Shown here in pieces: positions 7,406-51,617 of a stretch of 52,046 bases of DNA; positions within the stretch are counted from its first letter, which is position 1, and every line of letters begins with the position of its first letter. This DNA comes from Chiloscyllium plagiosum (lineage: Eukaryota). The notes beneath the pieces are model-generated. The model saw nothing but the letters and a program-made list of their open reading frames with translations, was not told the DNA's origin and searched no databases. A program made the translations under genes and the position numbers. The stretch spans positions 40,996,969 to 41,049,014 of the forward strand of contig NC_057719.1 of assembly GCF_004010195.1 (NCBI RefSeq). Direction: 5' to 3'.

Positions 7406-7557
7406 CCTGCAATCTTCTCCCCGACCTCTCCGCCTCCACGCCCTCTCCGGCCTATCACCCTCACCTTAACCTCCTTCCACCTATCGCATTCCCAACGCCC
7501 CTCCCCCAAGTCCCTTCTCCTTACCTTTTACCTTAGCCTGCTTGGCACACCCTCCTC

Positions 7558-7593
7558 ATTCCTGAAGAAGGGCTTATGCCCGAAACGTCGATT
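7558..7593 (+). ncRNA. Minimal hammerhead ribozyme motif in PLE terminal repeat (core intact)
   Basis: CTGAAGA(7562-7568) A GGGC TTAT GCCC GAAA(7582-7585) C GTC. Loop-less palindromic ACGU stem III, predicted cleavage after GUC at 7589. Stem I is very short. Confidence 0.8.
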
Positions 7594-8351
7594 CTCCTGC
7601 TCCTTGGTTGCTGCCTGACCTGCTGCACTTTTCCAGCAACACATTTTTCAGCCCCGGTAAGGTGATATCAGATGACGTGATCTAATAGAGATGGTTTTTG
7701 AGGCAAGTTTCTTGAAGTAGGAAAGTGAGATAGAGAGGCAAAGGGTTCTTATACTGGGACTTATACAGTTGAAATCACAGCTATCAATGGCAGAGAAATT
7801 AAAACTGTAGCTGCAACAAGGCCAGAAATAAGGAACGCAGATATATCTCAGAATGTTGTGAGGTTGGAAGGATTACAAGGATAGGGAAAATGAGATTATG
7901 AAGAGATTTGAACAAAAAATAAATGAGAATTTTAAAATCAAAACATTTCTTGATGGGGAGCCCATGCAGTGAGCACAGTGGGGTTTTGTGAACAGGACTA
8001 ATCACAAATTAAATGATGGGCTACAGAATATTGACCTCAAAAATGTCAGAGAGTAGGTAGGAGTATGTTAGAATATTTGAGTCCACAGTTAACGTAGGCA
8101 CGAATGAGGTTACCGCAGCAGATGAGCCAAGGACGGGTGAAAACAAGTCATGTTACAGAGGTGGAAAAATGTGGTCTTAGTGAAAGGACAAATATGGGCT
8201 CAGAAGTTCATTTCCAGTTTGAATGGGACCAAGGTTGTAAACAGATTAATTTGAGTCTGCTGTCAAGGTAAAGAGTGGAATCGATGGTTAGACAGTAAAG
8301 TCAGGAGCAGGGACCAAAAACATTCTTTGTGATGGACCTTGAAATCAATGT

Positions 8352-8552
8352 TGATTGTCAGAAAAACCCATCTGGTTCAATAATGTCCCTGATGGAAGGA
8401 AACTGCCTTCCTTATCTTCTCTGGCCTACATATGATTCCAGAAACCACATAAATGTGGTTAACTCTGAACTGCTCTCTTGGGCAATTAGGGATGGGGAGT
8501 AAAAGCTGTCCTGGCCAGCAATGCCCACATCCTATGACTGAATTTTAAAAAA
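8352..8552 (+). mobile_element. 3' part of the same tRNA-SINE family as 5106-5375
   Basis: aaaacccatctggttc...ctggcctacatatgattccag...gggcaattagggatgggg...gccagcaatgcccacatcc. Confidence 0.7.
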
Positions 8553-9515
8553 TGAGAACATTGGAAATGTACAATTGTTATGATTGTCAAAGACATTGAT
8601 GCAGTTCAGAAAGCTATTTAGATTTCCAGTGATTGACTAGAATAATCATTTCATGATTTTAAAGTTTTATAACTTTTACTGTGATAAGCCAACTAATAAT
8701 AATGTTGATTAAATACTGTTTCAGTAAGTAACTTAAATAAAACTATTCTAGCAGTAATAATATTTGTTAGAATCATTAATGCTGTTCACTTTCCATAAAC
8801 CTTTACTATCTTTAGCAGAGAATTCCAAATTCACAGTCTGGTTGACAACTTAGAGATGTTGTTAGCTATATTTGATGTGAGATTATGAATTCATGTTGGC
8901 TTGCTTAAATAGAGAATTAAATACATAAAGGTTATTCAAAATTTTTGAATGGATTTTCATGAATTAAAAAATAGAAGTTTTCTTCAGCTATATTAAAGTC
9001 GAGATGAAATATTTAAACATAGAGACAAAACTGTTTCTTTTATTTGATAGTATGCAACATATTCCAAATAGCCATTTCCAAATCAACATAAATGTTAACG
9101 AGTGTGTTGCCACAGTAAGCCAGGCCCCTTGGTTAGTTTAGCTGTCTAGCTAACAGATGCCAATAGCATAAACTCAATCCCCATTCTGGCTGAAGGGATT
9201 TCAAGGCCTTGTCCTCCCTGTGGTGGTAATTGTATGGCTGTGGTTTGCACTTACCTTAGTGCAAAGATGAGTTTGTTTAACCTTAACATGACTCCTGAGG
9301 TCTTCCCATGGTGGATACTGAGAGAACTGGTGTGGAGGGAGTAAGAGCAAGGATGATGGATGAGTGGGCATTAAATTGGCATAAGGGGCTATTGGGAATG
9401 GGTGGGAGGGTATTGCCTGGGGTGAATGGAGCATGGGAAGTGGATGGAATTTAAGAGGTTATAATGGTTGAGGCCAGAGGGCCTAACATCTGACAAAGCA
9501 ACCAAGCTACACCAT

Positions 9516-9768
9516 TTTAGATTACTTAGATTACTTAGATTAGATTAGATTACTTACAGTGTGGAAGCAGGCACTTCGACCCAACAAGTCCACACCGACC
9601 CATTCCCCTGTATTTACCCCTTCTTCTAACACTACGGGCAATTTAGCATGGCCAATTCACCTAACCTGCACATTTTTGGATTGTGGGAGGAAACCGGAGC
9701 ATCTGGAGGAAACCCACGTGGACACGGGGAGAATGTGCAAACTCCACACAGAGAGTCGCCTGAGGCGG
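9516..9768 (-). mobile_element. HE1-like V-SINE, 5'-truncated, with (TTAGATTAC)n-type tail
   Basis: V-domain gggaggaaaccggagcatctggaggaaacccac...aatgtgcaaactccacacag, CR1-like tail and tandem ttagattac. Confidence 0.85.
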
Positions 9769-10089
9769 TTTTAAACAGCACTTTCGAGCCACTTTGGCTG
9801 CCTCCAACCTGCGTTTGGTGGTGACTGCCCTGACGCCACCTAATAAACACCACTCCCTGACCGCAGAGTGAATATCCTGTCATTTCGGGAAGTACCACCT
9901 GGTTGTGGGTGCAACAAACCAAAAGATTTCCTGAATTGGGCTTCATGCCTTGTGAATGAGAATTTGGGCCTTATTTGCTGAGGCATATCTTGTTTCCTTA
10001 TTCCTCCTACCAAAATATACCTCATCACACTATGCTACTGTTAATTTGCAAATGACATGCACATTCTGTTAACTGTTTCCTGCAATTTG

Positions 10090-10335: not shown

Positions 10336-10964
10336 GATCATATTGTGATTCAGCAGCATGCTCATATTGGTAGATGATTAGTACTGTATTTCATTGAGGT
10401 GGTGGCTGGGGGGGGGGGTTGGGGAGGGGGGGAGGGTTGTGAGAAGGACAATATAAAGCTATTCAAACTGAGCTTGATGGCAGTCTAACTGACTCTGTAC
10501 TAGTGACCTGTGACTTGTTTTGTCATTCTCATATTCCACTCAAACAGTGCACAAAACCAAATTTATATTGTTCAGTAGTGACCTTAACCCGTAACTAGCA
10601 TGACAAACACAGCAAAGAAAGGAAAACGTAACCCTAATAGAATTAAAATCATTAGGCTGACAGGAAGACAGCATAAAATTGACAAAGACCATCTGCTCCA
10701 TGCACATAACCTGCAGCTATTACCACCAGCTGATGTCAGTCAGTCACATGGACGTTGGAGAAAGCCTAACCCCAGCACATGCTCCTCTCTCACACCCCAG
10801 CAGGCCAATCTAAAAAAAATCCAACAGACAATCTGATTCAAATCCAAACATACTTAATGTAATTCTATTCAGTCCTATTTATTTTTTCTCAATTTACTTG
10901 ATTTTAAAACCAAATTAAATAAAAGAAATCCTTATATTTTGTGAGTTGATAGTTCAGGTTGAGT

Positions 10965-11278
10965 TTAGATTAGATTCTCTACAGTGTAGAAACAGGCCCT
11001 TCGGCACAACAAGTCCACACCGCCCATCTGAAGAGAAACCCACCCAAACCGATTCCCCTACCCTATATTTATCCCTGACAACGCATCTAACCCTGTGGGC
11101 AATTTAGCATGGCCAATTCACCTGACCTGCACATCTTTGGACTGTGGGAGGAAACCGGAGCACCCGGAGGAAACCCACACAAACACGGGGAGAATGTGCA
11201 AACTCCACACAGAGAGGTGCAAATCAAACCCAGGAGCTGTGAGGCAGCAGTGCTAACCACTGAGCCACCGTGCTGCCC
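10965..11278 (-). mobile_element. Near full-length HE1-like V-SINE
   Basis: Minus strand begins GGGCAGCACGGTGGCTCAGTGGTTAGCACTGCTGCCTCACAGC (tRNA-like A box), followed by the V-domain, a CR1-like tail and (AATCT)n. Confidence 0.92.
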
Positions 11279-12734: not shown

Positions 12735-13290
12735 TCTGGAGGACTCCAACAGCTCCAACAACACCATCCAGGATGAAGCAATCCACTTGACTGGCACCAT
12801 AAACATCCACTCCTTCCACCACCAATGCTCAGTATCAGCAATGTGTACCGTCTGCAAGATAGACTACAGTAATTCACCAAAGATTCTCAGACAGCACCTT
12901 CCAAATCCACGACCACTTCCATCTAGGAGGACAAGGGCAGCAAATACATGGGAACACCACCCTCCAAGCCACTGACCATCCTGATTTAGACATTATTTCT
13001 CATTCATTCACAGGGATAAGGGCATAATTGGTGAGACCAGTATTTATTGTCCCATCCCTAATTGCTCAGAGGGCAATTTAAGTGTTAACCACTGTGCTAT
13101 TCCTTCACTGAGGCTGGGTCGATACCCTGGAATTTCCTTCCTAATGGCGATGTGGGTATACCTACATCAAATTGATTGCAGCAGTTCAAGAAGGGAAATC
13201 ACCATTATCTTTTCAAGGAAACTATGGACAGTCAATAAATGCTGGCTCAAACAGCTGTGCCCACATCCCATGAGTGAATTAAAAAAAAAA
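12735..13290 (+). mobile_element. CR1/L2-group LINE 3' fragment containing an inverted SINE-tail insertion (about 12995-13095)
   Basis: TIQDEAIHLTGTINIHSFHHQCSVSAMCTV-like C-terminus and tail caataaatgctgg...cccacatcccatgagtgaattaaaaaaaaaa; internal minus-strand tail atttattgtcccatccctaattgc. Confidence 0.8.
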
Positions 13291-13372
13291 TCTGTCCTCT
13301 TTTACCATCTTCTATATATAGTTATGTTCATAAAACCTTTGCTGTTCACTCTCAGGAATGGAGATCAGACAT

Positions 13373-14946: not shown

Positions 14947-16575
14947 CATAAGACCAGCAGATACGGGAGTAGAATTAGGCCATCATGTCTGTTCCACCAT
15001 TTGATCATGGCTCATATGTTTCTCTGGAATGAGAAAAACAAAAAAAAATTAGAAATGTTTCTCAGTCTCATTCTCCCTGTAACCTTTGTACCACTTAATA
15101 ATCAAGGAACTATCTATCTTTGTCTTAAATACACACAATGACTTGGCCTCTACAGTCCATTGCAGCAATTAGTTCCACAGATTCACTATCCTCTGGCTGA
15201 AGAAATTCCTCCTCATTTCAGTTCCAAAGGGGCATCCCTTCACTTTGAGGCTGTGCCTTTGGGGCCTAGTCTCTCCTACTAGTGGCAACATCTGCTCTAT
15301 ATCCGCCTATTCAGGCCTCTCAATATTCTGTAAGTTTCAATCACCTCCCTCCTCATCCTTCTGAACTCCATTGAGTACTTACTCAGAGCACCCATATGAC
15401 AGGCCCTTCATCTCTGGGATCACTCTTGTAAAATTCTTCTTGACGCCCCCTCCAAAGCTAACACTCTGTTTCTTAGGTATGGGGACCAAAATTGCTCACA
15501 AAGTTCCCTACCTGCTCATACTGTATTTCATCAGCAGAAACTCTTTCCTTTTTCTACCAATATCATTGGGAAATATCTGGACCATGACAACTGGATCTTT
15601 CTTCTCCCATTCCAACTTCTTTTGCAGCACAGATAACATATCCTGAACTCAGGCACCAGGCAGGCAACATAGCCAATACTCCAAATGCCATCTGACCAGA
15701 GCCTTATATAGCCTAAGTGATACGTCTCTGCTCTTGTATTTCAACCCTCTTGAAATGAATGCTGACATTGCATCCACCTTCCTAACTGCCAACTGAACCT
15801 GCATTATTCCTGATGAAGGGCTTTTGCCCAAAACGTCGATTTTGCCTGTCCTCGGATGCTGCCTGAATTGCTGTGCTCTTCCAGCACCACTGATCCAGAA
15901 ACTGAACCTGCATGTTAACCTGACGAGAAACCCGAACTAGGACTCCCAAGTACCTTTGTGCTTCAGATTTCCAAAGCTTGTCCCCATTTAGAAATAGTCT
16001 AGGCCTCTATTTTTCCTACCACAGTGCATAACATCATATTTTCCCACATTGTATTCCATCTGCCATTTCAATACCCATTCTCCTGACCTGTCCTTCTGCA
16101 GCCTCCCTACTTCCTCAATACTCCTTGTCCCTCCTCACATCTTTGTGTAAATTTAGCAACAATACCCTCAGTTCCTTCATCCAGATCATTAATATATAAC
16201 GTGAATACTTGTGGTCCCAACTCTGATCCCTTTGGAACTCCACTGGTCACTGGCTGCCATCCTGAAAAAGACACCTTTATTCCTCCTTGGTGCCTTCTGT
16301 CAGTCATCCAGCCATGCCAGTACCTTGCCCCTAACACAATAGGCTAAATAATCTTATTAAGCATCTAATCTTATGTATCAGTCTCTTGTGGCACCTTGTC
16401 AAAGGCTTTGTGGAAATCCAAATAGATCATGTCCACTGCCTCTCCTTTGTCAATCTTGTTCGTCACCTCCTCAAAGAATTCTAGCGGATTTATCAGGCAT
16501 GACCTCTCTTGACAAAGTCATGCTGACTTAGCCTATTTTATCATGCACATCCAAGCACCCTGCAATCTCATCCAG
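14947..16575 (-). mobile_element. CR1 LINE ORF2 (RT and 3' end), decayed, with internal insertions
   Basis: ORF 16107..16337 [35 protein letters not shown] 15649..15831 LKYKSRDVSLRLYKALVRWHLEY; CR1 3' tail at 14947-15010. Confidence 0.9.
15805..15899 (+). mobile_element. 95-bp PLE-tail insertion (hammerhead motif plus 3' tail) with 14-bp TSD
   Basis: AACTGAACCTGCAT at 15791-15804 and 15900-15913. Inside: CTGATGA A GGGC TTTT GCCC AAAA CGTC, with the G of GAAA mutated to A. Confidence 0.9.
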
Positions 16576-17229
16576 AGTTTGCTACACTTTTCGTTCTGAT
16601 TTTTAATTTAGCCCCTATCTGCTCATATTTCACCAGCAGAACCTCTTTCTAATTATATTATGGGTTCCTACGTGGACCATGGCAATTGGACCTTTCCCCT
16701 CCCAGTCCAAGTTCCTCTGGAGTACTGATAATATATCCTGAACCCAGGCATGAAGGAGGGAACACAGCATTTGGGACTCTCGATCCTAGCCACCAGGAAC
16801 AGTGTCTATTCCCTTGACTATACTGTCCCTGATTGCAACTACAGTCCTCTTTTCTTCCCAATCTTGAATGGCTCCCTGTTACCATGGTGCTATGGTCAAT
16901 TTGCTCGTCCTCCCTACAGGTCCCATTCTCATCCACACAGTGAGCAGGAATCTCAAACCTTTTAGGCAAACTCAAGGGCTGAGGCTCCTTCTGCACCACC
17001 TCCTGGATCCTCTCTTTGCATCGCTAGTAGTCACAGCCTCCTGTACCTGACTACTGACCACTGTCCAGGTAACTCTGTCCCACCTTGATGTGCTCAAAGC
17101 TCATATTACAGCTCATGAATTCTGAGATGGCATTCCTTAAGCAACTAACACTTGCTACAGATGTCAGTGCCAAAACGTGTGGTGCTGGAAAAGCACAGCT
17201 GGTCAGGCAACATCCAAGGAGCAGGAGAG

Positions 17230-17262
17230 TTGATGTTTCGAGTATAAGCTCTTCATCAGGAA
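17230..17262 (-). ncRNA. Degenerate hammerhead motif
   Basis: Reverse complement: CTGATGA A GAGC TTAT ACTC GAAA CATC. Confidence 0.6.
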
Positions 17263-17923
17263 AGTGGGAGGGGGCCCAAAGGAGCTGAGAGATAATTGGG
17301 AGGGGTGGGTGGGGCTGAGGGAAGGTAGTTAGGAAGGCGATAATAAGATGAAGGTGGGGTGTGATGGTGATAGGTCAGAGAAGAGGGTGATGCAGATAGA
17401 TGGTAAGGAAGATGGACAGGTAGGACAATTCAAGATGGTGGTGCCTCGTTGGAGGGTTGGATCTGTGATAAGGTGGGGCGAGGGCAGATTAGGAAACTGG
17501 TGAAATTGATATTGAGGTAGCGGTGGAGGAGGCCCAAGACTTCAACTCCTCCTCCCACTCCACCAAGGACATGCAAGTCCACCTGTGCCTCCTCCATCGC
17601 CAAATTCTAGCCACCCAATGCCTGGAGGAAGTACATTCATCTTCCCCCTTGGGGCCCACTAACCACGTGGGATCAATGTCGATTTCACAAGTTTCCTGAT
17701 CTCCCCTCCCCCCACCTTATCCCAGATTCAACCCTCCAACTAGGCATCACCATCTTGAACTGTCCTACCTGTCCATCTACTTTCCCACCTATCCGCTCCA
17801 TCCTCCACTCTGACTGATCACCATCACCCCCCACCTTCATCTACTTATCGCATTCCCAACTACCTTGCCTCAGCCCACCCCCCTCCTATTTATCTCGCAG
17901 TGCCAGTTTTCCCCCACCCCCAC

Positions 17924-17956
17924 ATTCCTGATGAAAAGCTTATGCTCGAAACCGCA
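17924..17956 (+). ncRNA. Degenerate hammerhead motif
   Basis: CTGATGA(17928-17934) A AAGC TTAT GCTC GAAA CCGC. Confidence 0.6.
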
Positions 17957-19431
17957 ACTCTCCTGCTTATCGGATGCTGCCTAATCGGTTGTGCTCTTCC
18001 AGCACCACACTCTTTAACTCTGATCTCCAGCATCTGCAGTCCTCACTTTCTCCCACTTGCTACAGATGTGGTCACTAAGAACCACAATGGAGCCAACAAC
18101 ATATCATTTGGCCCTGTAACTCTATTTTAATTACGAGTTCTTGATTTGATTTTTAAACATCACGCACTGGTCTTTTAGCTTGCAGCCTGTAAAATAAAAC
18201 TCCGACTTACCTTCAATTTGAAAGTGACCTATAACAGATGGTTGAATTAGTAGCTAATACCAACCAATGAACTTCCAGTTTATCTGTGATGTCACAGTTT
18301 TGCTGGGCTCCTGATCCTGGGCTTGAATTTATCCTGTTTAAACATTGCAAACTGTGAGCCCAAGGAAAGGCAAGCAAAAAATACCTCTTCCCCTCTGCAT
18401 TGACTTCCTAGGCTGCCTCCAAATTTCCTGAACTATTTTTTCATTTTGGCTGTGTCTCACTTTCTCCTTCCTGAACATGTGAAGTTTCCATCTTGAATAG
18501 CTTCTCCATGATTATTGGCCAACAGGATTCTGACAAATGTTTGATGAGCATAGGTTGCCAAATCCCCCAAATAAGGTATGTATAAGAACAAGAGTGGGGC
18601 TGGTGTAGGTTGGGGGAAGTGAAGTAGAGAGTTCTAGGGTACGAGTGGTTCCTTCATTGGGAGAAAACCAGGAGTTCTCTACATCAGCTCAAGGGAAGAG
18701 CAAAGACTGTTTGTCAACCAGAGACTGAGAGACATCAGGGATGAACAGTTTACCACTGCAAAGTGTAAGAATCCACCACTTCAGCCTCTCTGCTCGAGAG
18801 AATGGCTTTGGGATTGGGAAGGTATTCTCACCTGTGACACCTCGTATATTTCCTGTCCGCCATGAATTAAATAATGCATTTTATGTAAAACTGATGCTTT
18901 GCAACAATGTAATAAGTTACATGAAAATTCCTTAGAAATGGTTGATGACCTCTTCTTAAGTCATGAAACCCCAAAATGATTAGCTGATAGCTCTCAGTGG
19001 ATGGAGATCCCACTCCCAGGATCTTGATACCAAGGGAAGGCTTGCCATTGGTCTTAGTAGTATTTGATTGGCGTATGGCTCAGTGGGCCTTCTCTGGATT
19101 AGACAACACTAGTTTATGGGCAACTCTACAGCCCGCCAGAAAGATACTTGATGCCTCAAAAAGACTCCCCCTGCCAGATTAAACTGAGCACATCAATATG
19201 ATACCCAGCTAGGCTTGATGGGAACAGCACTATGGGAGACTCTTTCTGAACACCATAAGTATATACTAACGAAAGACATGGCACCATTGCAGACTGTCAT
19301 GTATTAGTTAGGGTTAACAATCCTCCAGGAATTAAAGATTATCTCCTACAGTTGTTGCTGTGAACAATTTGGCAGAAAAAATATCATTGGAGCATAAGGA
19401 CAAAGTTGTGCTTTTCTTCAATTTTCTTTGA

Positions 19432-19714
19432 TGTGGAGGTGCCAGTGTTGGACTGAGGTGGAAAAAGTAAAAAATCACAGGACACTGGGTTATAGTTCAA
19501 CAGGTTTATTTGAAATCGTAAGTATTCGGAACCCTACCGCAAGCTTACAGTTTCAAATAAACCTGTTGAACTATGGAGATAAGGCAGGAAGAGGATACTG
19601 ATTAGGAATGATCAGCCATGATCATATTGAATGTGCAGGCTCGAAGGGCTGAATGGCCTACTCCTGCACCTATTGTCTATTGTCTATTGTCTAACCCAGT
19701 ATCGTGTGGTTTTT
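19432..19714. mobile_element. Short fold-back remnant of the second PLE family with 12-bp TSD, interrupted by a CR1 3' end
   Basis: AATTTTCTTTGA at 19420-19431 and 19715-19726. Arms ctgggttatagttcaacaggtttatttgaaa and tttcaaataaacctgttgaactat[CR1]aacccag. Similar to 29990-30080. Confidence 0.8.
19575..19692 (+). mobile_element. CR1 extreme 3' end with (CTATTGT)n tail
   Basis: ggagataaggcagg...gaatggcctactcctgcacctattgtctattgtctattgtct; same family as 37411-37733. Confidence 0.85.
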
Positions 19715-20117: not shown

Positions 20118-22515
20118 AAATTCATTTGTGGGATGTGGTCATTGCTGGCTGGGCCAGCATTTATTGCCCATCCCTAGTTGCCCTTGAGAAGGTGGTAGTG
20201 AGCTGCCTTTGTGAACTGCTGCAGTCCACCTGCTGTGGGTTGACTCGCAATGCCATTAGGGAGGGAATTCCAGGATTTTGACCCAGCGACTGTGAAGGAA
20301 AGGTGATATATTCCCGTCAGGATGGTGAGTGGCTTGGAGGAGAACTTGAAGGTGTTGGTGTTCACATATATCTGCTGCTCTTGTCCTTCGAGATGGAAGT
20401 GGTCATTGGTTTGGAAGGAGATAGCTGAGGATCTTTGGTGAATTTCTGTAGTGCATCTTGCAGATTGTACACGCTGCTGCTACCAAGCATCAATGGTGAA
20501 GCGAGTGGATGATTGTAAATGCAGTGCCAATCAAACGGGCTGCTTTGTCCTAGATGATGTCATGATTCTTGAGTGTTGTTGGAGCTGCACTCATCCAGGC
20601 AAGTGTTCCATCACACTCCTGATTTATACCTTGTAGATAGTGGACAGGCTTTGAGGAGTCAGGATGTGAATTATTAACTGCGGTATTCCTAACCGCTGAC
20701 CTACTCTTGTAGCCACTGTGTTTATGTGGTGAGTCCAGTTAAGTTTCTGATCAATGATAACTCCCAGGATGTTAATAGTGGGGGAACTCATTGATGGTAA
20801 GATGATTGATGAGATTGTCTTTTATTTATGATGGTCATAGCCTGATATTTGTGTGGCACAAATGTTACTTTTCACTTGTTACTTGTTGCATTTGAACACG
20901 GACTGCTTCAGTATCTGAGGAGTCGTGAATGGTGCTGACCATTGTACAATCATCAGTGAACATCCCCACTTTTGATATTATGATGGAGAAAAGGTCATTG
21001 AGGAAGCAGCTGAAGATGGTTGGGCCTAGGACATTATCCTGAGGAATTCCTGCAGAGATGTCCTGGAGCTGAGATGACTGACTTCAAACAACCATGACCA
21101 TCTTCTTATGTGTTTGCCCCGATACCCATTGATGCCATTTTTGCTAGAGCTCCTGATGCCAGACTTGGTAGAATGCAGTCTTGATATCAAGGGCTGTCAC
21201 TCTCACCTCACCTCTGGAATTCAATTCTTGTCTGTTTGACTCAAGGCTGTAATGAGGTCAGGAGCTGAGGGGCCCTGGTGGAACCCAAACTGGGCGTCAC
21301 TGAGCAGGTTATTGCTGAGCAGGTGCTGCTTGATAGCACAGTAGATGCCATCTTCCACCACTTTTACTGATGATCAAACGTAGACTGGTGGGGTGGTAAT
21401 TGGCTTGGTTGAATTTGTCCTGCATTTTATATACAGGACATACTTGGGCAATTTTCCACATTGTCGGATGGAAACCAGTGATATTATTATACTGGAACAT
21501 TTGGCTAGGGGAGTGGCAAATCTTCAGTACTATTACCAGAATGTTGTCAGGGCCTGTATCCTTTGTTGTATCCAGGGTCTCCAGCTATTTCTTGATAACA
21601 CATGGAGTGAATTGAATTGGTTGAAGACTGGTATCTGTAATGCTGGGGACCACTGGAAGAAGCTGTGAAAGCTTCAGCCTTATCTTTTGCACTAATGTGC
21701 TAGGCTCGTCCATTATGGAGGATGGGGATATTTATGGAGCCTCCTGCTACAGTGAGTTGTTTAATTGTCCACCACCATGACTGGATGTGGCAGGGCTTAG
21801 ATCTGATCCATTGGTTGTGGGATTGTTTAGCTCTGTCAATTATTTGCTGCTTATCCTGTTTGGTATGCAGCTAGTCCTGTTTGGTGGCTTCACCAGGTTG
21901 ACCCTCATCTTCAGGTGCTGCTCCTGGCATGCCCTCCTGCATTCTCCATTGAACCAGGGTTGATCCTCTGGCTTGATGGTAATAATCAAGAGGGGATATG
22001 CTGGGCCATGTGGTTACAGATTGTGCTGGAGTACAATTCTGCTGCTGTTGATGGCCCACAGTACCTCATGGATGCCCAGTCTTGAGCTGTTAGATCTGTT
22101 CAAAGTCTGTCCCATTTAGCACGGTGATAGTGCCACACAACATGATGGAGGTTATTCTCAATGTGAAGGTGGGACTTGGTCTCCACAAAGGCTGTGCAGT
22201 GGTTGCTCTTACTGATTTTGACTTTGACAAATGCATCTGCAGTTGACAGATTGGTAAAAATGAGGTCCTACTCAGGAAACACTGAGTATGGCAATGGCAC
22301 AAAATATACTCTGGGTAGGGGATTTTACTATCAAGAGTGGCTCAGCAGTAGTACTACAGATCAAGCTAGCTGGGTCCTAAAGGACGCAGCTGCTAGACTG
22401 GGTCTGTGGCAGGTGGTGAGGGAACCAACAAGAAGGACCTCATTTTTACCAATCTGTCAACTGCAGATGCATTTGTCAAAGACAAAATCAGTAAGAGCAA
22501 CCACTGCACAGCCTT
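20118..22515 (-). mobile_element. CR1/L2-group LINE, about 2.2 kb of decayed ORF2 with an inverted 5' part (22270-22515 on +)
   Basis: Tail gcatttattgcccatccctagttgcccttgagaag; ORF 21309..21500 PTMWKIAQVCPVYKMQDKFNQANYHPTSL; GIPQDNVLGP-like motif near 21020-21050; endonuclease region LGLWQVVREPTR on +. Confidence 0.88.
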
Positions 22516-23625
22516 GAGAACACTTTTTTACAGATAGGGCTGCTGAAACAGTTATTATAAGAAGCATTACAATGTCTTTTAAGTTTTGATATAGGGATAA
22601 AAACAGAAAATAAGAGTTGACAGAGAAGGCATTCGTCGGCATTGTAGAGTGTACAGATAATTTAATGTTTTGAGCTTGGATCTTTTCTTGTGACATTGTG
22701 TTATGGTAATTCAGTCAGAGACCAAATTTACTAGTTCCAGCATGAGAGATTTTATTTTGATTATTTCCTTCATTTTACTGTTTTTTTAATTCATTTGTGG
22801 GACTTCGGCATTGTTGGCTGGCCAGCATTGATAGCCCATCCCTATTTGGAGGGGTGGGGTCTGAGGGCGGAGGTGCGGGATGTGGACGAGATGCGTTGGA
22901 GGGCATCTTTAACCACATGGGAAGGGAAATTGCGGTCTCTAAAAAAGGAGGCCACCTGGTGTGTTCTGTAGTGGAACTGGTCCTCCTGGGAGCAGATACC
23001 GCGGAGGCGGAGGAATTGGGAATACGGGATGGCATTTTTGCAAGAGGTAGGGTGGGAAGAGGTGTAATCCAGGTAGCTGTGGGAGTCGGTGGGTTTGTAA
23101 AAAATATCAGTGTCAAGTCCGTCGTCATTAATGGAAATGGAGAGGTCCAGGAAGGGGAGAGACGTATCAGAGATGGTCCAGGTAAATTTAAGGTCAGGGT
23201 GGAATGTGTTGGTGAAGTTGATGAATTGCTCAACCTCCTCGCGGGAGCACGAGATAGCGCCAATGCAGTCATCAATGTAGCGGAGGAAGAGGTGGGGAGT
23301 GGTGCCAGTGTAATTATGGAAGACCCCACCCCTCCAACCGTAACAAGGACAGAACGCCCCTGGTGCTCACCTTCCACCCTACACCAACCTTCACATAAAC
23401 CAAATCATCCGCCGACATTTCCGCCACCTCCAAAAAGACCCCATCACCAGGGATATATTTCCCTCCCCACCCATTTCCGCCTTCCGCAAAGACCATTCCC
23501 TCTGTGACTACCTGGTCAGGTCCACGCCCCCCTACGACCCACCCCCCCATCCTGGCACTTTCCCCTGCCACCGCAGGAACTGTAAAACCAGCGCCCACAC
23601 CTCCTCCCACACCTCTATCCAAGGC

Positions 23626-23978
23626 NNNNNNNNNNNNNNNNNNNNNNNNNNNNNNNNNNNNNNNNNNNNNNNNNNNNNNNNNNNNNNNNNNNNNNNNNNN
23701 NNNNNNNNNNNNNNNNNNNNNNNNNNNNNNNNNNNNNNNNNNNNNNNNNNNNNNNNNNNNNNNNNNNNNNNNNNNNNNNNNNNNNNNNNNNNNNNNNNNN
23801 NNNNNNNNNNNNNNNNNNNNNNNNNNNNNNNNNNNNNNNNNNNNNNNNNNNNNNNNNNNNNNNNNNNNNNNNNNNNNNNNNNNNNNNNNNNNNNNNNNNN
23901 NNNNNNNNNNNNNNNNNNNNNNNNNNNNNNNNNNNNNNNNNNNNNNNNNNNNNNNNNNNNNNNNNNNNNNNNNNNNNN
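23626..23978. other. Assembly gap (353 N)
   Basis: Run of N. Confidence 1.
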
Positions 23979-24055
23979 ATTGTACTCTATGCTACTTTCT
24001 CCCCACTCCCACCCTCCTCTAGCTTATCTCTCCACGCTTCAGGCTCTCTGCCTTT

Positions 24056-24091
24056 ATTCCTGATGAAGGGCTTTTGCCCGAAATGTCGATT
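24056..24091 (+). ncRNA. Minimal hammerhead ribozyme motif (core intact)
   Basis: CTGATGA(24060-24066) A GGGC TTTT GCCC GAAA(24080-24083) T GTC. Confidence 0.75.
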
Positions 24092-24892
24092 TCGCTGCTC
24101 CTTGGATGCTGCCTGAACTGCTGTGCTCTTCCAGCACCACTAATCCAGAATCTGGTTTCCAGCATCTGCAGTCATTGTTTTTACCTCTATTGTGGGTTGA
24201 CCTACAATGCAGGTAGGGAAGGAATTTTGACCCAATGACTGTGAAGGAACAGCAGTATATTTCCAAGTCAGAATGGTGAGTGGCTTGGAGGGGCATGTGG
24301 CTTGAAGGATATGGTCATGAGTTTGGAAGTGCTGTCGAAGGATTTTTGGTTAATTTCTGCAGTACACCTTGTAGATCGCACACACTGCTGCTATTGAGCA
24401 CCGGTGGTGGAGAGATTGAATGTTTGTAGATGTGGTGCCAATCAAGCGAGTTGCTTTGTCCTAGATGGTTTCAAGCTTCTTAAGTGTTGTTGGAGCTGCC
24501 TCCATCCAGGCAAGTGGGGAGTATTCCATCACAGTCCTGACTTGTGCCTTGTAGATAGACTGTTGATAGCAACACAGCCACTTGCAATTACACCTATGCT
24601 CAGCCAAAGCCTTGATGAAATTTCTAACTGACCCGCACAGGGTGAAATGCCAGGTAGTCGTAATGTCCTTTTGAATGGAAACTGAGTTCACAAAATACTT
24701 GAGCCAACATAATTATATTCATTTTTTAAAATAGTCTAGAGTAGAGCAATTTTGTTGTCAAGTATTTAAAAGTAACTACCCATTATTGGTTTTGAGTGAC
24801 AGCTGTAGGATATAAAGTAGTAAGAAACTGAGTGAAAACACTTTTTGTAATTAAGGATTTCCTGCTGGATGCACAAATGAACATGCAAACAT

Positions 24893-29915: not shown

Positions 29916-30077
29916 ATACCAAGATCCTTGATCTATTCTGTTAATTACATATTAATTGTATTTTGTTTGAATGCAGGATCTAATGAAGTTATGATTTGGA
30001 GGTGCTGGTGTTGGACTGAGGTGTACAAAATTAAAAACCACACAACACCAGGTTATAGTCCAACAGGCTTAATTGGA

Positions 30078-30114
30078 AGCACTAGCTTTCGGAGCACTGC
30101 TCCTTTATCAGGTG
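30078..30114 (-). ncRNA. Minimal hammerhead ribozyme motif of the second PLE family (one core substitution)
   Basis: Reverse complement: CAC CTGATAA A GGAGC AGT GCTCC GAAA G CTA GTG. Stem I CAC/GTG, 5-bp stem II, palindromic AGCU stem III, G8-to-A change. Confidence 0.75.
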
Positions 30115-30487
30115 GTTGTGGTGGACGCAATTGTAAGACACAGAATTTATAGCAAAAGTTTACAGTGTGATGTAACTGAAATTATACATTGAAAAATACC
30201 TTGATTGTTTGTTGAGTCTTTCATCTGTTAGAATGACCATGATAGTTTCACTTCTTTCATATGTAAATCACAAAGCTTTTTTTAAAAGTTACTTTCTCAG
30301 GTTAACTGTAATAATTGGTGTCAGCCAGATAATATGTTGAAGGTATTAGCCCCTGTGCCCCGTCTGTGCCATAATGTTCAGACTGATTCTAATCTAAAAA
30401 GTGAGTTAACAGAGTCTTACATGGATTCATGCAGTTTTTGAGCAAAGTACAATGTAACTCTGCAAGTACAAATTCACCCCACAAACG

Positions 30488-30656
30488 TATATGTATATGT
30501 GTGCATGTGGGTTTGTGTGTGTGTCTGTCTGGGGTTGGGGGTTGTGAGTGTGAGAGAGAGTGTATATGTGTGTGTATGTGAGCGTAGAGTGTCTAAGTCT
30601 GTGAGAAGGTGCATGCGTGAGTGTGGGAGTGTGTGTGAGTGTCTGTGTGTGTATAT
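30488..30656. repeat. Imperfect (TG)n/(GA)n tract inside the PLE 3' region
   Basis: gtgtgtgtgtctgtctggggttgggggttgtgagtgtgagagagagtgtatatgtgtgtg... Confidence 0.8.
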
Positions 30657-31044
30657 AATGCAATGGTGGTCACCTGTAGTGTGACATGAACCCAGGGTCC
30701 CGGATGAGTTCCTCCCTATGGGTACGGAACTTAGCTATCAGCCTCTGCTCGGCCACTTTTTGCTGCTACCTGTCCCGAAGTCCGCCTTGGAGGATGGTCA
30801 CCCGAAGCTCCGAGGTCGAATGTCCTGGACCGCTGAAGTGTTCCCCAACTGGGAGGGAACCCTCCTGTCTGTTGATTGTTGTGCGGTGCCCATTCATCCG
30901 TTGTTGTAGCCTATGCTCGGTTTCCCCAATGTACAATGCATCAGGGCATCCTTGCCTGCAGCGTATAAGATAGACAACGTTGGCTGAGTCACATGAGTGC
31001 CTAATGAATGTTTTCATTTTACTTGCCTTCACCAGAGTCTCATG

Positions 31045-37238: not shown

Positions 37239-37239
37239 T

Positions 37240-38940
37240 GGTATGGGCGAAATCCTACTTCAGATTCAACGAGATAGGTCTGAGAGCTCAATTACCATAT
37301 TTCCAGACTTCTTACTGACAACAAACAGAGATATGTTGTTATCGAGAAAGAAGTACTCACAGAAATTTGGCATGCATGACCATATATTTGGCCGACCAAT
37401 CAAAATTGGACACTCTGGAGGCAAGAAACATGTTTCCACTGATGGGTGAGTGCCGAACCAGAGGACACAGCTTAAAAATACGGGGTAGACTTCTTCACCC
37501 AGAGAGTGGTGGCTGTGTGGAATGCTCTGCCCCAGAGGGCAGTGGAGGCCCAGTCTCTGGATTCATTTAAGAAAGAGTTGGATAGAGCTCTCAAGGATTG
37601 TGGAATCAAGGGTTGTGGAGATAAGGCAGGAACAGGATACTGATTAAGGATGATCAGCCATGATCATTTTGAATGGTGGTGCAGACTCGAAGGGCAGAAT
37701 GGCCTACTCCTGCACCTATTGTCTATTGTCTATAATTAGAACTGGCCACAAGCCATTGCCAACTTTATTAAACACAAAATAACTCAAAAGGATGCCTCTT
37801 AGAATCCAGATATCTCAACTGTAGTTGATACAGAATGACATAGTTATAGCAAATATAAAAGTGAAACACCAGATAGCTCTTGATAATCTATCAAGAATTC
37901 CCATCAATAACCCAGACAAAGAAGGTGAAGCTTTCCTTCAAGGAGTCAAGTGCTTCATTGGCTTCAATGCTGAGTATTTACCATCCACACTGAATTTGCG
38001 GGAATTTCATGAGGTTCAATTGTATGATGAAGAATATGTGCAGATCTGTATGGTTTAGCTTTGATGACTGGCCAGAGAAAGTGCACAGTAATCCTATCCT
38101 ACTGCAGTTTTGAATAAAGCTGTCACTTCTGTGTTATCACTGACCATTTGGTTTCTGATGAGAGGTTGGTAATCCTATGAGCTTTCCATTTGATCATCCT
38201 CCAGAAAATCTACCAGGGACAACTGAATAGACAGCTACAGCAATCTGAATGGTGTCCTGGTATCTCCAGTTCCCTTAAGTCCATGGTCTCCAACTGCATC
38301 ACCTGCACTACTCAGACAGCCCCTTGCACTCTCCTCTTTTCCAGCTAGGTTATAGACATGACATACAATTGATCTATTTGAGTTTAAGGGAATTATTTGT
38401 TGCCATGTTGGTCGACTATTGTTCCTAATAGATTCAAATCCACGGTCTCAATGGTGTCACCTAACAGACTATAGTAACCTCTTTGAAAACCACATTTTCC
38501 ACCATTAAATCCTGGACATCATTACTTCTAACAATGGACCAGTTTTCTAATGAGTTCTCATTATCCTTTGTGCACTCCTATAGTTGTGTCCTCATTACAA
38601 GATCACTTAGCAATAATATCTAACAATAATAATTAATAATAATATTAAAAAGTCAATAGTGAACCTCAGGTATCATTAGGTTGGGTGGGTAATATTTACC
38701 ATAATTATTACTGAGGAAAAGGAAATAAAAATTGTCAGTTTGCCTTGAAGCACTGACTATCCCTTTTCCATGTACAATCCCAACTGTCGCAATGCAGCAC
38801 TATGAACTAACAAGTCAGAAAGAAATATCTGTTAGGAAAGACCGGGATGGCACCTTCAAATAGAAATACCAGGTTTATGCCCTTCCTGTTCCAGACCAGG
38901 GAGTCAAGGTGTGGTGCTAGGACCAGCAATGTGAGGGCCG
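37240..38940 (+). mobile_element. Decayed Gypsy LTR-retrotransposon pol (RNase H - integrase)
   Basis: GMGEILLQ...QRYVVIEKE; TGHKPLPTLLN..RMPLRIQ; ALDNLSRIP; DERLVI..ILQKIYQGQL; IDLFEFKG...VDY; DIITSNNGP; KVWC*DQQCEG. Many stops and frameshifts. Confidence 0.8.
37411..37733 (+). mobile_element. CR1 3' fragment inserted in the Gypsy RNase H
   Basis: RTRGHSLKIRG; FFTQRVVAVWNALPQRAVEA; (CTATTGT)n tail. Gypsy reading resumes at TGHKPL. Confidence 0.9.
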
Positions 38941-38984
38941 CGTGCTTGTAAAATTGTTACAACTGAGATCATGGCAAACAGCAC

Positions 38985-39695
38985 TGCACTGGAAAGGGTG
39001 CAGAAGAAATTGATTGTTGCCCGTGCTGGACAGTTTTACTTATGAGGAGAGATTTGATAGACTTAAGTTGGTTTTCCTTGCAGCAGAGGGGACTGAGATA
39101 GGGGAGGAGGGGGCACATGATTGAGATGTTGAAAATTATGAGGGCATAGACAGAGGAGATAGGTGGAGGGGTCAATGACCAGGGACACAGATTTAATATA
39201 AGAGGCAGGATGGTTATACAGGATGCGAGGAAAGGTTTTTTTAAAATCACAGAACATTGGGATCCGGAACTCGCTGCCTGTAAGGGTGATAGAGACAGAA
39301 ACCCTCATAACATTTAAGAAGTATTTAGATCTGCACATGTGATGTTGAAGTACACTTGACAATGGGTCAGGATTAGAGTGGTGCTGGAAAAGCACAGCAG
39401 GTCATGTAGCATCAGAGGAGTAGGAAAATCGACATTTCGGGCAAAAGCCCTTCATTAGGAATGTTCTGCCCAAAGCGTCAATTTTCCTGCTCCTCGGATG
39501 CTGCCTGACCTGCTGTGCTTTTTCAGCACCACTCTAATCTTGACTCTAATCTCCAGCATCTGCAGAACCCACTTCTGCCGCACTTAACATTGGACCAAGT
39601 GCTGGAAAGTGGGACTAGAATAATTAGGTGGCTGATTTTGACCGAGCAGACTCAAGGGCCTGAAGGGCCTATTTCTGTGCTATCGGCCTCTATGA
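38985..39695 (+). mobile_element. CR1 3' fragment interrupted by a PLE fold-back
   Basis: gcactggaaagggtgcagaagaaa; ggaactcgctgcctgtaagggtg; tail gggcctgaagggcctatttctgtgctat. Confidence 0.8.
39366..39580. mobile_element. PLE-tail fold-back element with a degenerate hammerhead (minus, 39430-39460)
   Basis: gtcaggattagagtggtgctggaaaagcacagcaggtca and tgacctgctgtgctttttcagcaccactctaatcttgac are inverted arms. Degenerate TSD CACTTGACAATGG (39353-39365) / CACTTAACATTGG (39581-39593). Core CTAATGA..GGGC TTTT GCCC GAAA TGTC. Confidence 0.85.
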
Positions 39696-40009: not shown

Positions 40010-40226
40010 TGTGAGGTAAAATTTAACTGTACATTTTACTCTAAGAATGCCTTTGAGCATGTGTATAAGGAGCTGTGTCATAAGGAATTGGTATGAGCAA
40101 CTGTTGGATTCCAGAAAATTTCTTCTTTAGACCCTCTCATGCATTACTATGTTTAATGAAGCTCATTTAAATGTTCATTCACCTGAGTGTGGGTCTGACC
40201 TTGCTACGCATCTCTCAATCTACACA
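40010..40226 (+). mobile_element. Possible 3' LTR of the Gypsy relic
   Basis: Starts TGT after purine-rich ttgaggcaaga, contains TATAA, ends ...CTACACA, and lies downstream of the integrase. No 5' LTR in the window. Confidence 0.3.
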
Positions 40227-43200
40227 TTTCTCTCTCCTCCTTTCAGAAAATATAGTACACAACTGGAGCAGAAGCTAACTGAAGGGAGAGAGGTTGCTCC
40301 CCTCAAGAGGAGAATATGCTGGCCTTGATCGGAAAGGCAGTTGCTGAAGCCACAGAAGTGGTTGGGTTGAATCCATGATTGGCAGCGTCCTCATACTTAA
40401 TCATCTTTCAAATGCAGATGTTGTAAGCCTGCCTGCCCTCAACACAACTTTATCTTGTGCTTTTTTTCCTTTCATTTCCCTAAAAACTGCAACAGGCCAG
40501 GCAATGAAGTACGTGGGCAGAATTGACATGAAATGCAAACTATTTACATTTAATGGCACTCTGCATCGCAGGAGACTCTGGAATTCTTGCAAATCTTTTT
40601 CCCGTTGTATCTGCTCAGAGGGACGTGTGGCGACAGTGCATAGTAGATTTCAGAGATGATCTACTTACTGAAGCATGGAGGTCTCGAAGATCGTTTCTCA
40701 TTGAGGTCTGTGCTGAAGAATTGTTCCATGCTCATTCCAGCCAAATATGCCTTTGGACAATCTTGCCTCACCTCCTTATCTTGCTGGAGCTGGCATTCAT
40801 ATATGGCTGGAACTGATTTCTGATAGAAGCCTTGAAGTATTTCATCAATTCCCCATCACTCCCTTTAGCCATTTGAAATTTAAAACAACAATGGAAAGCA
40901 CCTTCCTGTTCTTTCAATTTTGTGGGCCGCTCTCCTGTATCTGAATTATAAATGTCTGAAGCTAAATGGTGTGTCTTTGTTTGTTCTTACCCACTCGACA
41001 TTTTAATACTCTTAAGGAATCCACAACACTGATTTACAGAAGTCCTCAATAACAGTGGACCACGTCAAGGGCAAAAAAAAAATTTAAATTGTATCTATAA
41101 AATTAAAGCTCTTCGTGGAAGAAAAAATGCAATAAGTGCGAACAGGAACAAAATAAGATTCCTAATATCAATATTTAGCTCATTACTGCTATTCTGAAGC
41201 AGCCCTATTCAATTGGAGCGGTCATTGGTCATAAAAATCCAATTAAAACTCAAGGTCAAAAATATTCTCAACCTAAAGGTCCTTTTGGGAAGACATTTGC
41301 ATTTGTAATGAAGAAGTCTATAGTTGAAATGAAATTATACAATGGAAAATCTGATTCAGCTTGCATTAGAGAGAAGCAGCATTGTACAATTGAATATCCC
41401 AATATGCAACGGCTGCCATATGCTGTTGAGTCAAGGAGCTTTTCAATAAGGCAGAGAATAGCCTGCAGCAATAGACATGACATCAAATAAGCAAATAATG
41501 AATATGTCTGATGTTTGCACATGAACTCATTAAGCTACAAATCTGAAACAGTGTGTCAAACTATTTCTTACAACAAAATCTTATATGATTTCCTTGCTTT
41601 CTCTTGTCATTTGTAAAGATATTAAATTCAAAAAGTCATGCTCATCTGGTTTCATCGGACCATGTTTTAATCATAATGAATGGTGCAATATTGCTAATAT
41701 TTCTAACCTGATATATTCTTGGACTGCAGGGGATAAAAGAATAATTTATAGATAAAGATAATTATAGTAAAACTAAAACCAGAAAAGCAATCAAAATATT
41801 TCCTGAAACAAATATATTACAGCATTTGTTGGGACTTTAATCTCTAGAACTCCCTTCCCAAACTTCATCCCCCTCTTCTGCTGTCTCTCCTTTACAAATC
41901 AGTTTAAAACTTATCTCCATGTCCAAGTATTTGGTCACCTGTCCTATGTCTTGGACATTTTACTGCTTTGTGAGCATTGTTGATAAATAAGCAAAATGAG
42001 TTGACTTTCTCATGCAATCATTTTTTCACTACTTGCAAAACTACAATATTTGCCTGAAACAATTTGAGTTAAAGTTTAAATGTTCTTTTTGCACAGATGG
42101 GTGAAAATCAAGATTTTCTTAGATCTGTAGCAGGCATACAGATTGTCTAGGAGAAAGAGAATAATGTAAACTTGGCCAGGTTAGCTCACAAGCCTGTGGA
42201 CAAACCATTCTGGTTTGTATTCCATTTAATTTTCTGGTGAAATCTCTGCAGTTACCTTTCTAGGTGGACCTGTCTGTCCAGCTTTCTAATATTGGAAGCA
42301 CACAGGTAATCCTTCCTCTGGGCCCAGAGACACAGAAATTCCCTCCAGTAGATTCACAATTGTGAAAAGATGTGTCAAATACTGGGGCAGCTGGGAATAC
42401 TGGAATTAGCAATGCAAATGCCTCTTGCAAACCCTTTGATATTTGAATTTTTAATCAAATACGGCTGTTCATTACGATCCTAAACAGCAGCATGTCATGC
42501 TAAGAATGATTAAAAATCTGTGAATGATTTTGAATTATTGATTGTCAGGTTCAAACCTAAATGGTTGAAAATGTAGCAGAAGAAAATAAGCATTGAGTAT
42601 TTTTTAGGTGAACAAATGTGATGCAGGAATAAAATTATAAAGCATATTTGTATCCGATGGCTGAATTTCCTTGTCTGCTCTTAGTATACTGGTAGCTGTT
42701 CTCAGTACTCCATGTAACGGCACTGATACCTTATTTTACTTCCAAGACAAAATGCTCTTAGAGAAGCAAGGGATTTGGTCAAAAGAGAAACTTAAAAAGC
42801 ATCACAGAGAAAAAGAATGGCATTTGCTGAAAATCTGGTACAAAAGCAGAAAATACTGCAAATTCACTGCAAGTCTGTAAGAAGAAATGCCAGTTCCATG
42901 CTGTTACAGACAGGTGGGAGAAGCTGAATTAAATTACTTTATGGTCCTACTCTTCCATCTGCAAGACAGGTGATTTTTAATCTTTTTCATATTTCTGTTA
43001 TGTTCGTACTTTTTCCTTTTGAAATAAGCCATGATATGTTCCTTCAAATTCCTTAATTGCTTTTTAAAAGTCCTCGCAACAAATTCTCTGCATGATTAAA
43101 ACAAAAGAATAATTTGATCATGCATTCAAACCCAGAGGATAATTTTAACAATGCAACACACACAAACATACAAATAAGAAAGAAATGAAAATACATTGCA

Positions 43201-43474
43201 GTTATGAACAACAAAAATAAGATAAGGCAGTAGTTTATATGAATCGGTGTCTAGTAAGTTAATGTCCACTGAGCATTTTCATAGTTGTCTGATTTTGTTT
43301 TAGTATTTCTTTACATAGGATCGTGGATGCAGTCGGGTGCAGTTGAATTCTTGGAGATGGGAACTTGTTCACTTTTCAGGGAAGTTACAGGATTCTTCCA
43401 GAAATAAGATTTGAGAGATGTCAAGCTTTAATTCATTTGCTCATTGTCTTGTGTTGATGTTAACATGACAATCT

Positions 43475-43612
43475 GAGAATCGACTTTCGGGCATCAGCCC
43501 TTCATCAGGGATGACTTCATTCCTGATGAAGGGCTTATGCCCAAAACATCGATTTTTTTGCTCCTCAGATGCTGCCAGACCTGCTGTGTTTTTCCAGCAC
43601 CACACTCTCGAC
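43475..43612. mobile_element. Short PLE-tail insertion with two head-to-head hammerhead motifs
   Basis: Minus: CTGATGA(43508-43502) A GGGC TGAT GCCC GAAA GTC. Plus: CTGATGA(43523-43529) A GGGC TTAT GCCC AAAA CATC, followed by the PLE tail. No TSD seen. Confidence 0.85.
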
Positions 43613-51606: not shown

Positions 51607-51617
51607 TGAAGCACTCT

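What the first reader, a model, noticed from the sequence alone, without database searches (positions are those of the whole stretch)
7558..43550. Nine minimal hammerhead ribozyme motifs in PLE termini, with covariation across families
Seen: CUGANGA-stem II-GAAA cores at 7562(+), 15810(+), 17259(-), 17928(+), 24060(+), 30111(-), 39458(-), 43508(-) and 43523(+). Stem II changes compensatorily: GGGC/GCCC; GAGC/GCTC (consensus of the two 17-kb arms); GGAGC/GCTCC. Stem III is a loop-less 4-nt palindrome that also covaries (ACGU with GUC site versus AGCU with CUA site). Established: PLEs carry minimal type I hammerheads that are thought to cleave as dimers. Inference: these are self-cleaving RNA motifs invisible to ORF annotation. 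Only 7562 and 24060 keep a fully canonical core, and stem I is weak (2-3 bp).
Basis: partly seen in the sequence, partly recalled or inferred. Interest (0 to 1): 0.7.

Follow-up and report, generated by a model that had tools for sequence, protein, structure and literature searches.

The report
Penelope ribozymes at transcript start
These nine motifs are real hammerhead-ribozyme-shaped ends of Penelope-like jumping genes, a known arrangement present in over 130,000 copies in this genome; the copy boundaries suggest the ribozyme likely sits just behind the RNA's start and was usually uncut when copies were made.

Summary
All nine motifs are at the stated coordinates. They come from seven insertions of two Neptune-type Penelope-like (PLE) families; eight of the nine belong to one family. 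They fit the minimal type I hammerhead described for PLEs in 2014, so the kind is known. Four patterns count 132,325 intact cores genome-wide. Stems I and II covary across families, and GAGC/GCUC is a real subfamily (253 copies against 13-19 expected). Most window copies are decayed, mainly at CpG sites. Cleavage was not tested, and the Rfam scan found no hammerhead.

Added here, from 120 evenly spaced 10-kb loci: copy 5' ends almost never fall at the cleavage site (4 of 190; 0 of 69). In three families they pile up about 30 nt downstream of a TATA-like box, 4, 8 and about 23 nt before the core. Head-to-head pairs carry one short and one long 3' end (32 of 44; 17 of 19). The likely reading is run-off copying of uncut, promoter-started RNA from both sides of the DNA break. 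Earlier notes of this scan had already reported the head-to-head stubs on other DNA.

The parts
5421..7651 (+). 5'-truncated Neptune-type PLE copy (family 1), short 3' end; imperfect TSD at about 5412-5420 / 7650-7659
5633..7405 (+). Open frame, 590 aa: RT (PF00078, E 2e-8; YIDD), CX4CXXC linker, GIY-YIG-type endonuclease with CCHH residues
   Evidence: relative L146 also hits PF01541
7562..7589 (+). Minimal hammerhead, fully intact (stem II GGGC/GCCC, ACGU palindrome, predicted cut after GUC at 7589); predicted RNA start A at 7558
15805..15899 (+). Solo 95-nt stub beginning at the predicted RNA start; core 15810-15837 (G12>A); 14-nt TSD at 15791-15804 / 15900-15913
17165..18053 (.). One head-to-head insertion of the GAGC/GCUC subfamily: short-ended minus arm (core 17232-17259) and long-tailed plus arm (core 17928-17955), both decayed; 16-nt TSD at 17149-17164 / 18054-18069
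19429..19574 (.). Head-to-head stub resembling family 2, both arms cut short of the CUGANGA core; source of the sub-threshold MIR7696 Rfam match
22846..24185 (.). Inverted family-1 PLE fragments (RT on minus 22846-23323; linker/EN on plus 23323-23625; N gap 23626-23978) ending in core 24060-24087 and a long tail
29990..31012 (-). 5'-truncated copy of the second Neptune-type family: GIY-YIG piece (about 30775-31002), 3' UTR, hammerhead, tail
30145..30151 (-). TATAAAT box starting 40 nt before C3; predicted RNA start A at 30119
30083..30111 (-). Family-2 minimal hammerhead (GGAGC/GCUCC, AGCU palindrome, CUA site; G8>A)
39366..39580 (.). Head-to-head stub: short minus arm with core 39431-39458 (G5>A) and long plus arm starting inside stem II (about 39464); TSD 39353-39365 / 39581-39593 (11 of 13 match)
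43473..43612 (.). Head-to-head stub: cores 43482-43508 (minus, one base lost in stem III) and 43523-43550 (plus, G12>A)

Best explanation
These are minimal type I hammerhead motifs in the terminal repeats of two Neptune-type Penelope-like retrotransposon families; they likely form the first structure of the element's RNA and likely cut only as protein-assisted dimers, while the inserted copies were likely made from uncut RNA. Steps: (1, inferred) A promoter in the terminal repeat, with a TATA-like box about 30 nt upstream, starts RNA 4 nt (family 1), 8 nt (family 2) or about 23 nt (family 3) before the core. (2, shown in vitro for the anole element, inferred here) The RT-endonuclease nicks both target strands and starts reverse transcription at two internal sites about 36 nt apart downstream of the ribozyme, one per strand. 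(3, inferred) Starting at the 5' repeat, both cDNAs read through the intact cleavage site, run off the RNA start and are joined head to head, giving 100-250-nt stubs with one short end, one long end and a TSD. Starting at the 3' repeat gives long, usually 5'-truncated copies. (4, inferred) Active master elements keep the fold under selection; cleavage of paired motifs would remove a 30-50-nt capped leader and/or release unit-length RNA for circularisation. (5, shown) Inserted copies then decay, mostly at CpG sites.
For: PLE context; motif at both ends of L266. Covariation: G-C to A-U switch in 253 copies against 13-19 expected. In an 11-sequence cross-family alignment, 7 of 10 pairs change on both sides, 86% of cells pair against 68% shuffled and 18-39% with partners slid. 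5' ends: per-base ending rate 7.1% at -25..-34 against 0.2-0.9% away from the pile in family 1, and 4.2-5.2% at -25..-44 against 0-0.9% in family 2; exactly at the cut site 4 of 190 and 0 of 69. Reference-free support: 36 of 44 and 14 of 19 close pairs have at most 75-76 nt between the two cut sites. Promoter spacing: TATAAA in 37 of 48 family-2 read-through copies; TTATCT at -34/-36 in 65 of 73 family-1 copies; Inr-like A at -32 in 11 of 13 references. Discriminating test: family 3 has its TATA box 53 nt before C3, and its pairs join farther out, 171 with 31-61-nt spacers against 42 with 0-30, and 26 of the 50 listed at 44 or 46 nt. 3' ends: one long plus one short in 32 of 44 and 17 of 19 pairs (p 3e-8 and 7e-6 on the 34 and 17 classifiable pairs). 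Decay: CpG positions 13-26% changed against a mean of 3.8% at other core positions; core intact in 65 of 103 and 23 of 46. Literature: PMC11167929 (two RT start sites, uncleaved template, protein-assisted cleavage); PMC4209133 (low dimer-dependent activity).
Against: No cleavage, RNA start or circle was observed. One raw RNA run showed reads on both strands and no pile of starts or ends; a second laid no reads. Rfam finds no hammerhead. A model built without family 2 missed 30111 and found only about 6 of 30 intact family-2 cores, at E 0.04-0.5. The ACGU/AGCU switch is a single family-level event and was not in the counted alignment. Related sequences can exceed shuffles without any structure (tool caveat). 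Alignment-based 5' ends are biased where subfamilies diverge just upstream of the core. The family-3 mode at 46 nt sits on a 10-nt palindrome that could itself seed joins. The family-1 box is not a canonical TATA. The cap-G signal is weak (15 G against 7 A; 7 of 9), and several of those G's are explained by the opposite arm or the TSD. Short copies starting beyond +15 could not be seen by my method.
Confidence: 0.75

Rival explanations
1. The ribozyme fold or a protein bound to it arrests reverse transcriptase, or its inverted repeats seed template switching, so stub ends mark the structure and not an RNA start.
For: Ends in families 1 and 2 lie within about 10 nt of stem I. Short microhomologies are visible at many junctions. 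Family-3 joins centre on a palindrome.
Against: The end position shifts with the TATA-like box (-4, -8, about -23 from C3) and not with the core. TSD-bounded solo copies, with no partner arm, also start there: about 6 clean family-1 cases at -21..-34 among 28 TSD hits and 2 family-2 cases at -35/-37 among 9, with 4 and 2 control hits. An arrest would be expected on the 3' side of a fold (inference).
Confidence: 0.12
2. Dimeric cleavage at both terminal repeats followed by ligation gives a circular RNA, and this circle is the main template, which is why copies read through the cut site (model of PMC4209133).
For: A circle restores the intact junction and would regenerate the upstream promoter. 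It is compatible with the read-through copies (68 of 215 family-1 cores). Retrozymes with type I hammerheads do circularise (PMC7229834 passages).
Against: A circle has no end at TATA+30, where most stubs stop. L266 has both repeats, and its 5' repeat begins at the predicted start, which fits a linear template (n=1, internally deleted).
Confidence: 0.08
3. The motif is kept as a protein-binding or promoter-proximal structure and is catalytically vestigial in these families.
For: Templates were uncut. Cleavage is dispensable for insertion in vitro (PMC11167929). Naiad PLEs spread without hammerheads (bioRxiv 10.1101/2021.04.23.441226 passages).
Against: All core positions and an NUH triplet (GUC, GUU, CUA) are kept in the family majorities while N7, loop II and the stems vary. 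The anole motif does cleave with protein and responds to C3/G8 mutations (PMC11167929).
Confidence: 0.05

Closest known systems
Minimal type I hammerheads (min-HHR) in pLTRs of metazoan PLEs, including fish Xena, Poseidon and Neptune (Cervera and De la Pena 2014, PMC4209133)
   Same: Core, extra base after A9, G10.1-C11.1 pair, loop-less palindromic stem III, short stem I, many families, mostly truncated single or opposite-strand copies
   Different: At least 132,325 intact cores here against about 4,000 (coelacanth) and 9,000 (Xenopus) there; stem I 3-4 bp; no shark terms found in the one searchable supplement with hits
Poseidon_Ac (PAc) of Anolis carolinensis (Frangieh et al. 2024, PMC11167929)
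   Same: Hammerhead followed by two 3' ends a 'tail' apart; copies read through the cut site
   Different: Neptune-type linker zinc finger here; the pairing of one short with one long end per insertion is counted in a genome here and not reported in the sections read; whether the ORF starts inside the ribozyme, as in PAc, was not established
EN+ PLE insertion units with inverted pLTR, one-sided tail and TSD (Adineta Pen2a, PMC3846280; Craig et al., bioRxiv 10.1101/2021.04.23.441226)
   Same: Head-to-head layout, 30-40-nt tail on one side, TSD, TATA and Inr-like sequence in the pLTR
   Different: PMC3846280 explains the inverted junction by self-priming on an antisense template; the data here favour two sense-templated run-off cDNAs
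Non-LTR retrozymes (PMC7229834; bioRxiv 10.64898/2026.07.22.740005)
   Same: Type I hammerheads in non-coding repeats related to pLTRs
   Different: Retrozymes are head-to-tail tandem arrays; here close pairs are head-to-head (44 against 6 direct, 19 against 3)

Membership tests
PLE minimal type I hammerhead | Core CUGANGA...GAAA with U16.1 and H17 | tested here: met
   Family majorities; complete in 4 of 9 window sites: 7562, 17259, 24060, 43508
PLE minimal type I hammerhead | Extra nucleotide between A9 and 10.1, and G10.1-C11.1 pair | tested here: met
   Extra A or U in all family majorities; G-C in 9 of 11 aligned copies
PLE minimal type I hammerhead | Palindromic 15.1-16.1 without loop III | tested here: met
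   ACGU or AGCU majorities; perfect in 3 of 9 window sites
PLE minimal type I hammerhead | Compensatory changes in stems I and II across families | tested here: met
   no phylogeny-aware test such as R-scape was run
PLE minimal type I hammerhead | Located in both pLTRs of a PLE | tested here: met
   3' copy in 22 of 29 other ORF loci; both ends seen in one locus only, L266
PLE minimal type I hammerhead | Self-cleavage as a dimer | not testable with these tools
   Needs a bench assay; RNA reads were uninformative
Rfam hammerhead families | Covariance-model match | tested here: not met
   No hammerhead family at E<=1 in the window
Neptune-type EN+ PLE | Single ORF with RT and C-terminal GIY-YIG carrying CCHH | tested here: met
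   PF00078 above cut-off, PF01541 just below cut-off; motifs read in translations
Neptune-type EN+ PLE | CX2-5CxxC zinc finger in the RT-EN linker and DKG motif | tested here: met
   L146 and L289 translations; the linker finger is shared with Nematis
Neptune-type EN+ PLE | RT phylogeny groups with Neptune references | not tested
   No reference sequences were fetched; the label rests on motifs
Non-LTR retrozyme | Head-to-tail tandem units, each with a hammerhead | tested here: not met
   No such array in the window; head-to-head pairs dominate

The most novel reading that the evidence does not exclude
PLE stubs are a fossil transcription-start map. They show that the PLE hammerhead sits 30-50 nt behind the cap of a TATA-driven RNA, where it would act as a dimer- and protein-gated decapping switch and not as the processor of the insertion template, and that each insertion is written by two RTs using a different start site on each strand.
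Probability: 0.3. Interest if true: 0.6.

Novelty: new member of a known kind. Interest (0 to 1): 0.33.

Why it matters
The role of hammerheads in endonuclease-bearing PLEs is still called unclear (Craig et al. passages). If stub ends mark the RNA start, the ribozyme's position relative to the cap is known and a decapping or circularisation role can be tested directly. The one-short-one-long rule gives genomic support for the two-start-site mechanism shown in vitro. The nine motifs themselves are ordinary, mostly decayed members of a class described in 2014.

Tried and rejected
Rfam scan: no hammerhead; the MIR7696, mir-980 and SCARNA7 matches are below threshold, and the two miRNA-type matches fall on PLE hairpins. 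Monomer folding gives no hammerhead fold for any of the nine sites, which is expected for a dimer motif and so uninformative. Own covariance model R1 generalised poorly to family 2. First family-2 count (222 copies) was contaminated by a reference holding a family-1 insert; L074 was dropped and the count redone (69). Pair distances were biased by anchor choice; values are used. Family-2 rows were misaligned in A1 and left out of A2. RNA: no RNA holder listed; X19 gave reads on both strands and no start or end pile, X20 laid nothing, and contig runs cannot show ends; this is not evidence either way. Cap-G test inconclusive. No intact full-length element was found among 20 widened loci or 30 N-terminal loci; L266 is internally deleted. 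Flanks for families 3 and 4 could not be fetched genome-wide, so their stem I rests on 6-12 local copies per family. Retrozyme and chance-motif readings were rejected. Literature searches returned no papers; others returned no paper that, from listings and the passages read, ties stub ends to a promoter. The library lacks most subscription journals, bioRxiv supplements are closed, and one supplement file of PMC4209133 could not be searched.
Full report
Observation. All nine motifs are at the stated places. Five keep the 11 core bases and four have one core change; only 7562 is intact in every part. Descriptor hits exceed shuffles in the window (3 against a mean of 0.07) and in 120 evenly spaced 10-kb loci of the same genome (109 against 1-9). 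Rfam reports no hammerhead. The nine motifs are seven insertions. TSDs were read at four of them: 7562 (imperfect), 15810, the 17-kb pair and the 39-kb pair.

What carries them. The frame 5633-7405 encodes an RT (PF00078), a CX4CXXC linker and a GIY-YIG-type domain with CCHH residues. Of 29 other ORF-bearing loci, 22 have a sense motif after the frame. L266 has the motif at both ends. The 30111 motif belongs to a second family with the same protein motifs (L289; GIY-YIG match just under cut-off), and 21 of 25 loci of that family carry the motif downstream. By the motif criteria in Craig et al. (passages) both are Neptune-type; no tree was built. The genome is 3.56 Gb; that it is shark-like is recalled and echoed by earlier notes, not tested.

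Abundance and covariation. Exact matches: 84,546, 29,383, 17,678 and 718, total 132,325, with reversed-pattern controls of 0-2. The G-C to A-U switch in stem II occurs in 253 copies; single changes number 1,156 and 892, so 13-19 would be expected by independence. Family majorities keep the core, the extra base after A9, G10.1-C11.1, a 4-nt palindrome and an NUH triplet, while stems I and II change in pairs. In 11 real copies spanning five families (family 2 left out for misalignment), 7 of 10 pairs change on both sides and 86% of cells pair, against 68% shuffled and 18-39% slid. Relatedness can inflate this, and the ACGU/AGCU switch is one event. A model built from these 11 copies found 8 of 9 window sites (one was in training) but missed 30111, and recognised about 6 of 30 intact family-2 cores weakly.

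State of the copies. Among sampled copies that span the core, it is intact in 65 of 103 (family 1) and 23 of 46 (family 2). In family 1, CpG positions are changed in 13-26% of copies, against 3.8% on average at other core positions. The three head-to-head pairs in the window are predicted to fold into long hairpins (69-79% paired). These copies look like decaying records and not like selected ribozymes.

Where copies begin and end. In the 120 loci (1,153,780 non-N bases) I found 190 family-1 and 69 family-2 copies covering the tail; 17 and 2 were censored by edges or N. Only 4 and 0 begin exactly at the cut site. The per-base ending rate peaks at -25..-34 in family 1 (7.1%) and -25..-44 in family 2 (4.2-5.2%), against 0-0.9% away from the pile. 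Within 600 nt, pairs are head-to-head 44 times (tail-to-tail 3, direct 6) in family 1 and 19 times (3, 3) in family 2. In 36 of 44 and 14 of 19 pairs the two cut sites lie at most 75-76 nt apart, which needs no reference. The 3' ends fall in two classes about 36 nt apart, and pairs hold one of each in 32 of 44 and 17 of 19; the rest are mostly unclassifiable, with 1 long-long and 1 short-short in family 1.

Why the ends pile there. Family 2 has TATAAA 38-40 nt before C3 (37 of 48 read-through copies), and one peak of its truncated copies starts at an A 8 nt before C3, with another at 4-5 nt. Family 1 has TTATCT at -34/-36 (65 of 73) and an Inr-like A 4 nt before C3 (11 of 13 references). Family 3 has its TATA box 53 nt before C3, so a start-site model predicts ends roughly 20 nt upstream, whereas a ribozyme-arrest model predicts ends at the core edge. 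Genome-wide, family-3 pairs number 42 with 0-30-nt spacers and 171 with 31-61; 26 of the first 50 listed have 44 or 46, which puts arm ends near -23. A palindrome at that spot confounds the exact mode. TSD-bounded solos agree in the few clean cases. An untemplated cap G, a lead from note e1-8639255, stayed inconclusive. RNA reads gave no start or end signal.

Mechanism. Most likely (0.75): a TATA-driven RNA begins just before the ribozyme. The RT-endonuclease primes from both nicks at two internal sites, copies the uncut RNA to its start and joins the two cDNAs, producing stubs; priming at the 3' repeat gives long copies. The ribozyme is kept by active masters and probably cuts only as a protein-assisted dimer, removing the capped leader or releasing unit-length RNA. 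Shown here: sequence, context, covariation, end positions and decay. Inferred: RNA start, cleavage and its purpose. Rivals are arrest or template switching at the fold (0.12), a circular main template (0.08) and a catalytically vestigial motif (0.05).

Literature seen. PMC4209133: parts 1-2 of 4 of the text and a supplement search with one file unavailable. PMC11167929: parts 1-2 of 4. bioRxiv 10.64898/2026.07.22.740005: part 1 of 5 and passages. bioRxiv 10.1101/2021.04.23.441226, PMC3846280, PMC2377424 and PMC7229834: passages. PMC8455134: listing only. Minimal hammerheads in fish PLEs, inverted pLTRs with a one-sided tail, two RT start sites and uncleaved templates are all in print. I found no paper tying stub ends to a TATA-spaced start, within a library that lacks most subscription journals. 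Earlier notes of this scan describe the head-to-head stubs in at least 15 genomes; these are unchecked AI notes and not support.

Verdict. Interest 0.33, resting on the copy number and on the boundary evidence about where the RNA starts and whether the template was cut.

Noticed in passing
G000 genome-wide; L082, L106, L200, L223: Further hammerhead families absent from the window: a long-stem-II family with 17,678 exact matches and a GGGUC/GACCC family with 718. Their ORFs were not examined.
   Followed up: partly
L266 (3' side of the 5' repeat): The long tail ends in a branch-point-like and pyrimidine-rich run followed by TAG just before the ORF region, which resembles a 3' splice site; PLEs are known to hold introns. 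A second PLE stub is nested inside this 5' repeat.
   Followed up: no
family 1, about 34-36 nt before C3: The conserved TTATCT box is a reversed GATA-type site (recalled, not tested) at the spacing where the other families have TATAAA.
   Followed up: partly
L258, L261, L266, L272, L276: Five of 30 N-terminal loci are internally deleted PLE copies that still end in a hammerhead and tail.
   Followed up: no
window 20119-22203, 24191-24558, 48363-51400, 12761-13294: Decayed repeat family with a weak RT match on the minus strand (PF00078, E 2.6e-4); probably a CR1-type LINE (label recalled).
   Followed up: partly
window 9537-9755, 10962-11268, 50681-50910, 51464-51611; 19574-19687 / 37616-37733: Short interspersed repeats that look like SINEs (label recalled); one interrupts the 19.5-kb stub.
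   Followed up: no
window 22188-22272 / 22431-22515: 85-nt inverted repeat at 98% identity, 158 nt apart, unrelated to the PLE ends.
   Followed up: no
window about 6620-6930 (P0001 aa about 330-430): The open frame departs from relative L146 in this stretch and then rejoins it, which suggests compensating frameshifts.
   Followed up: no
L146:1498-4179: 893-aa open frame with a tandem 120-nt duplication near its N-terminal end.
   Followed up: no
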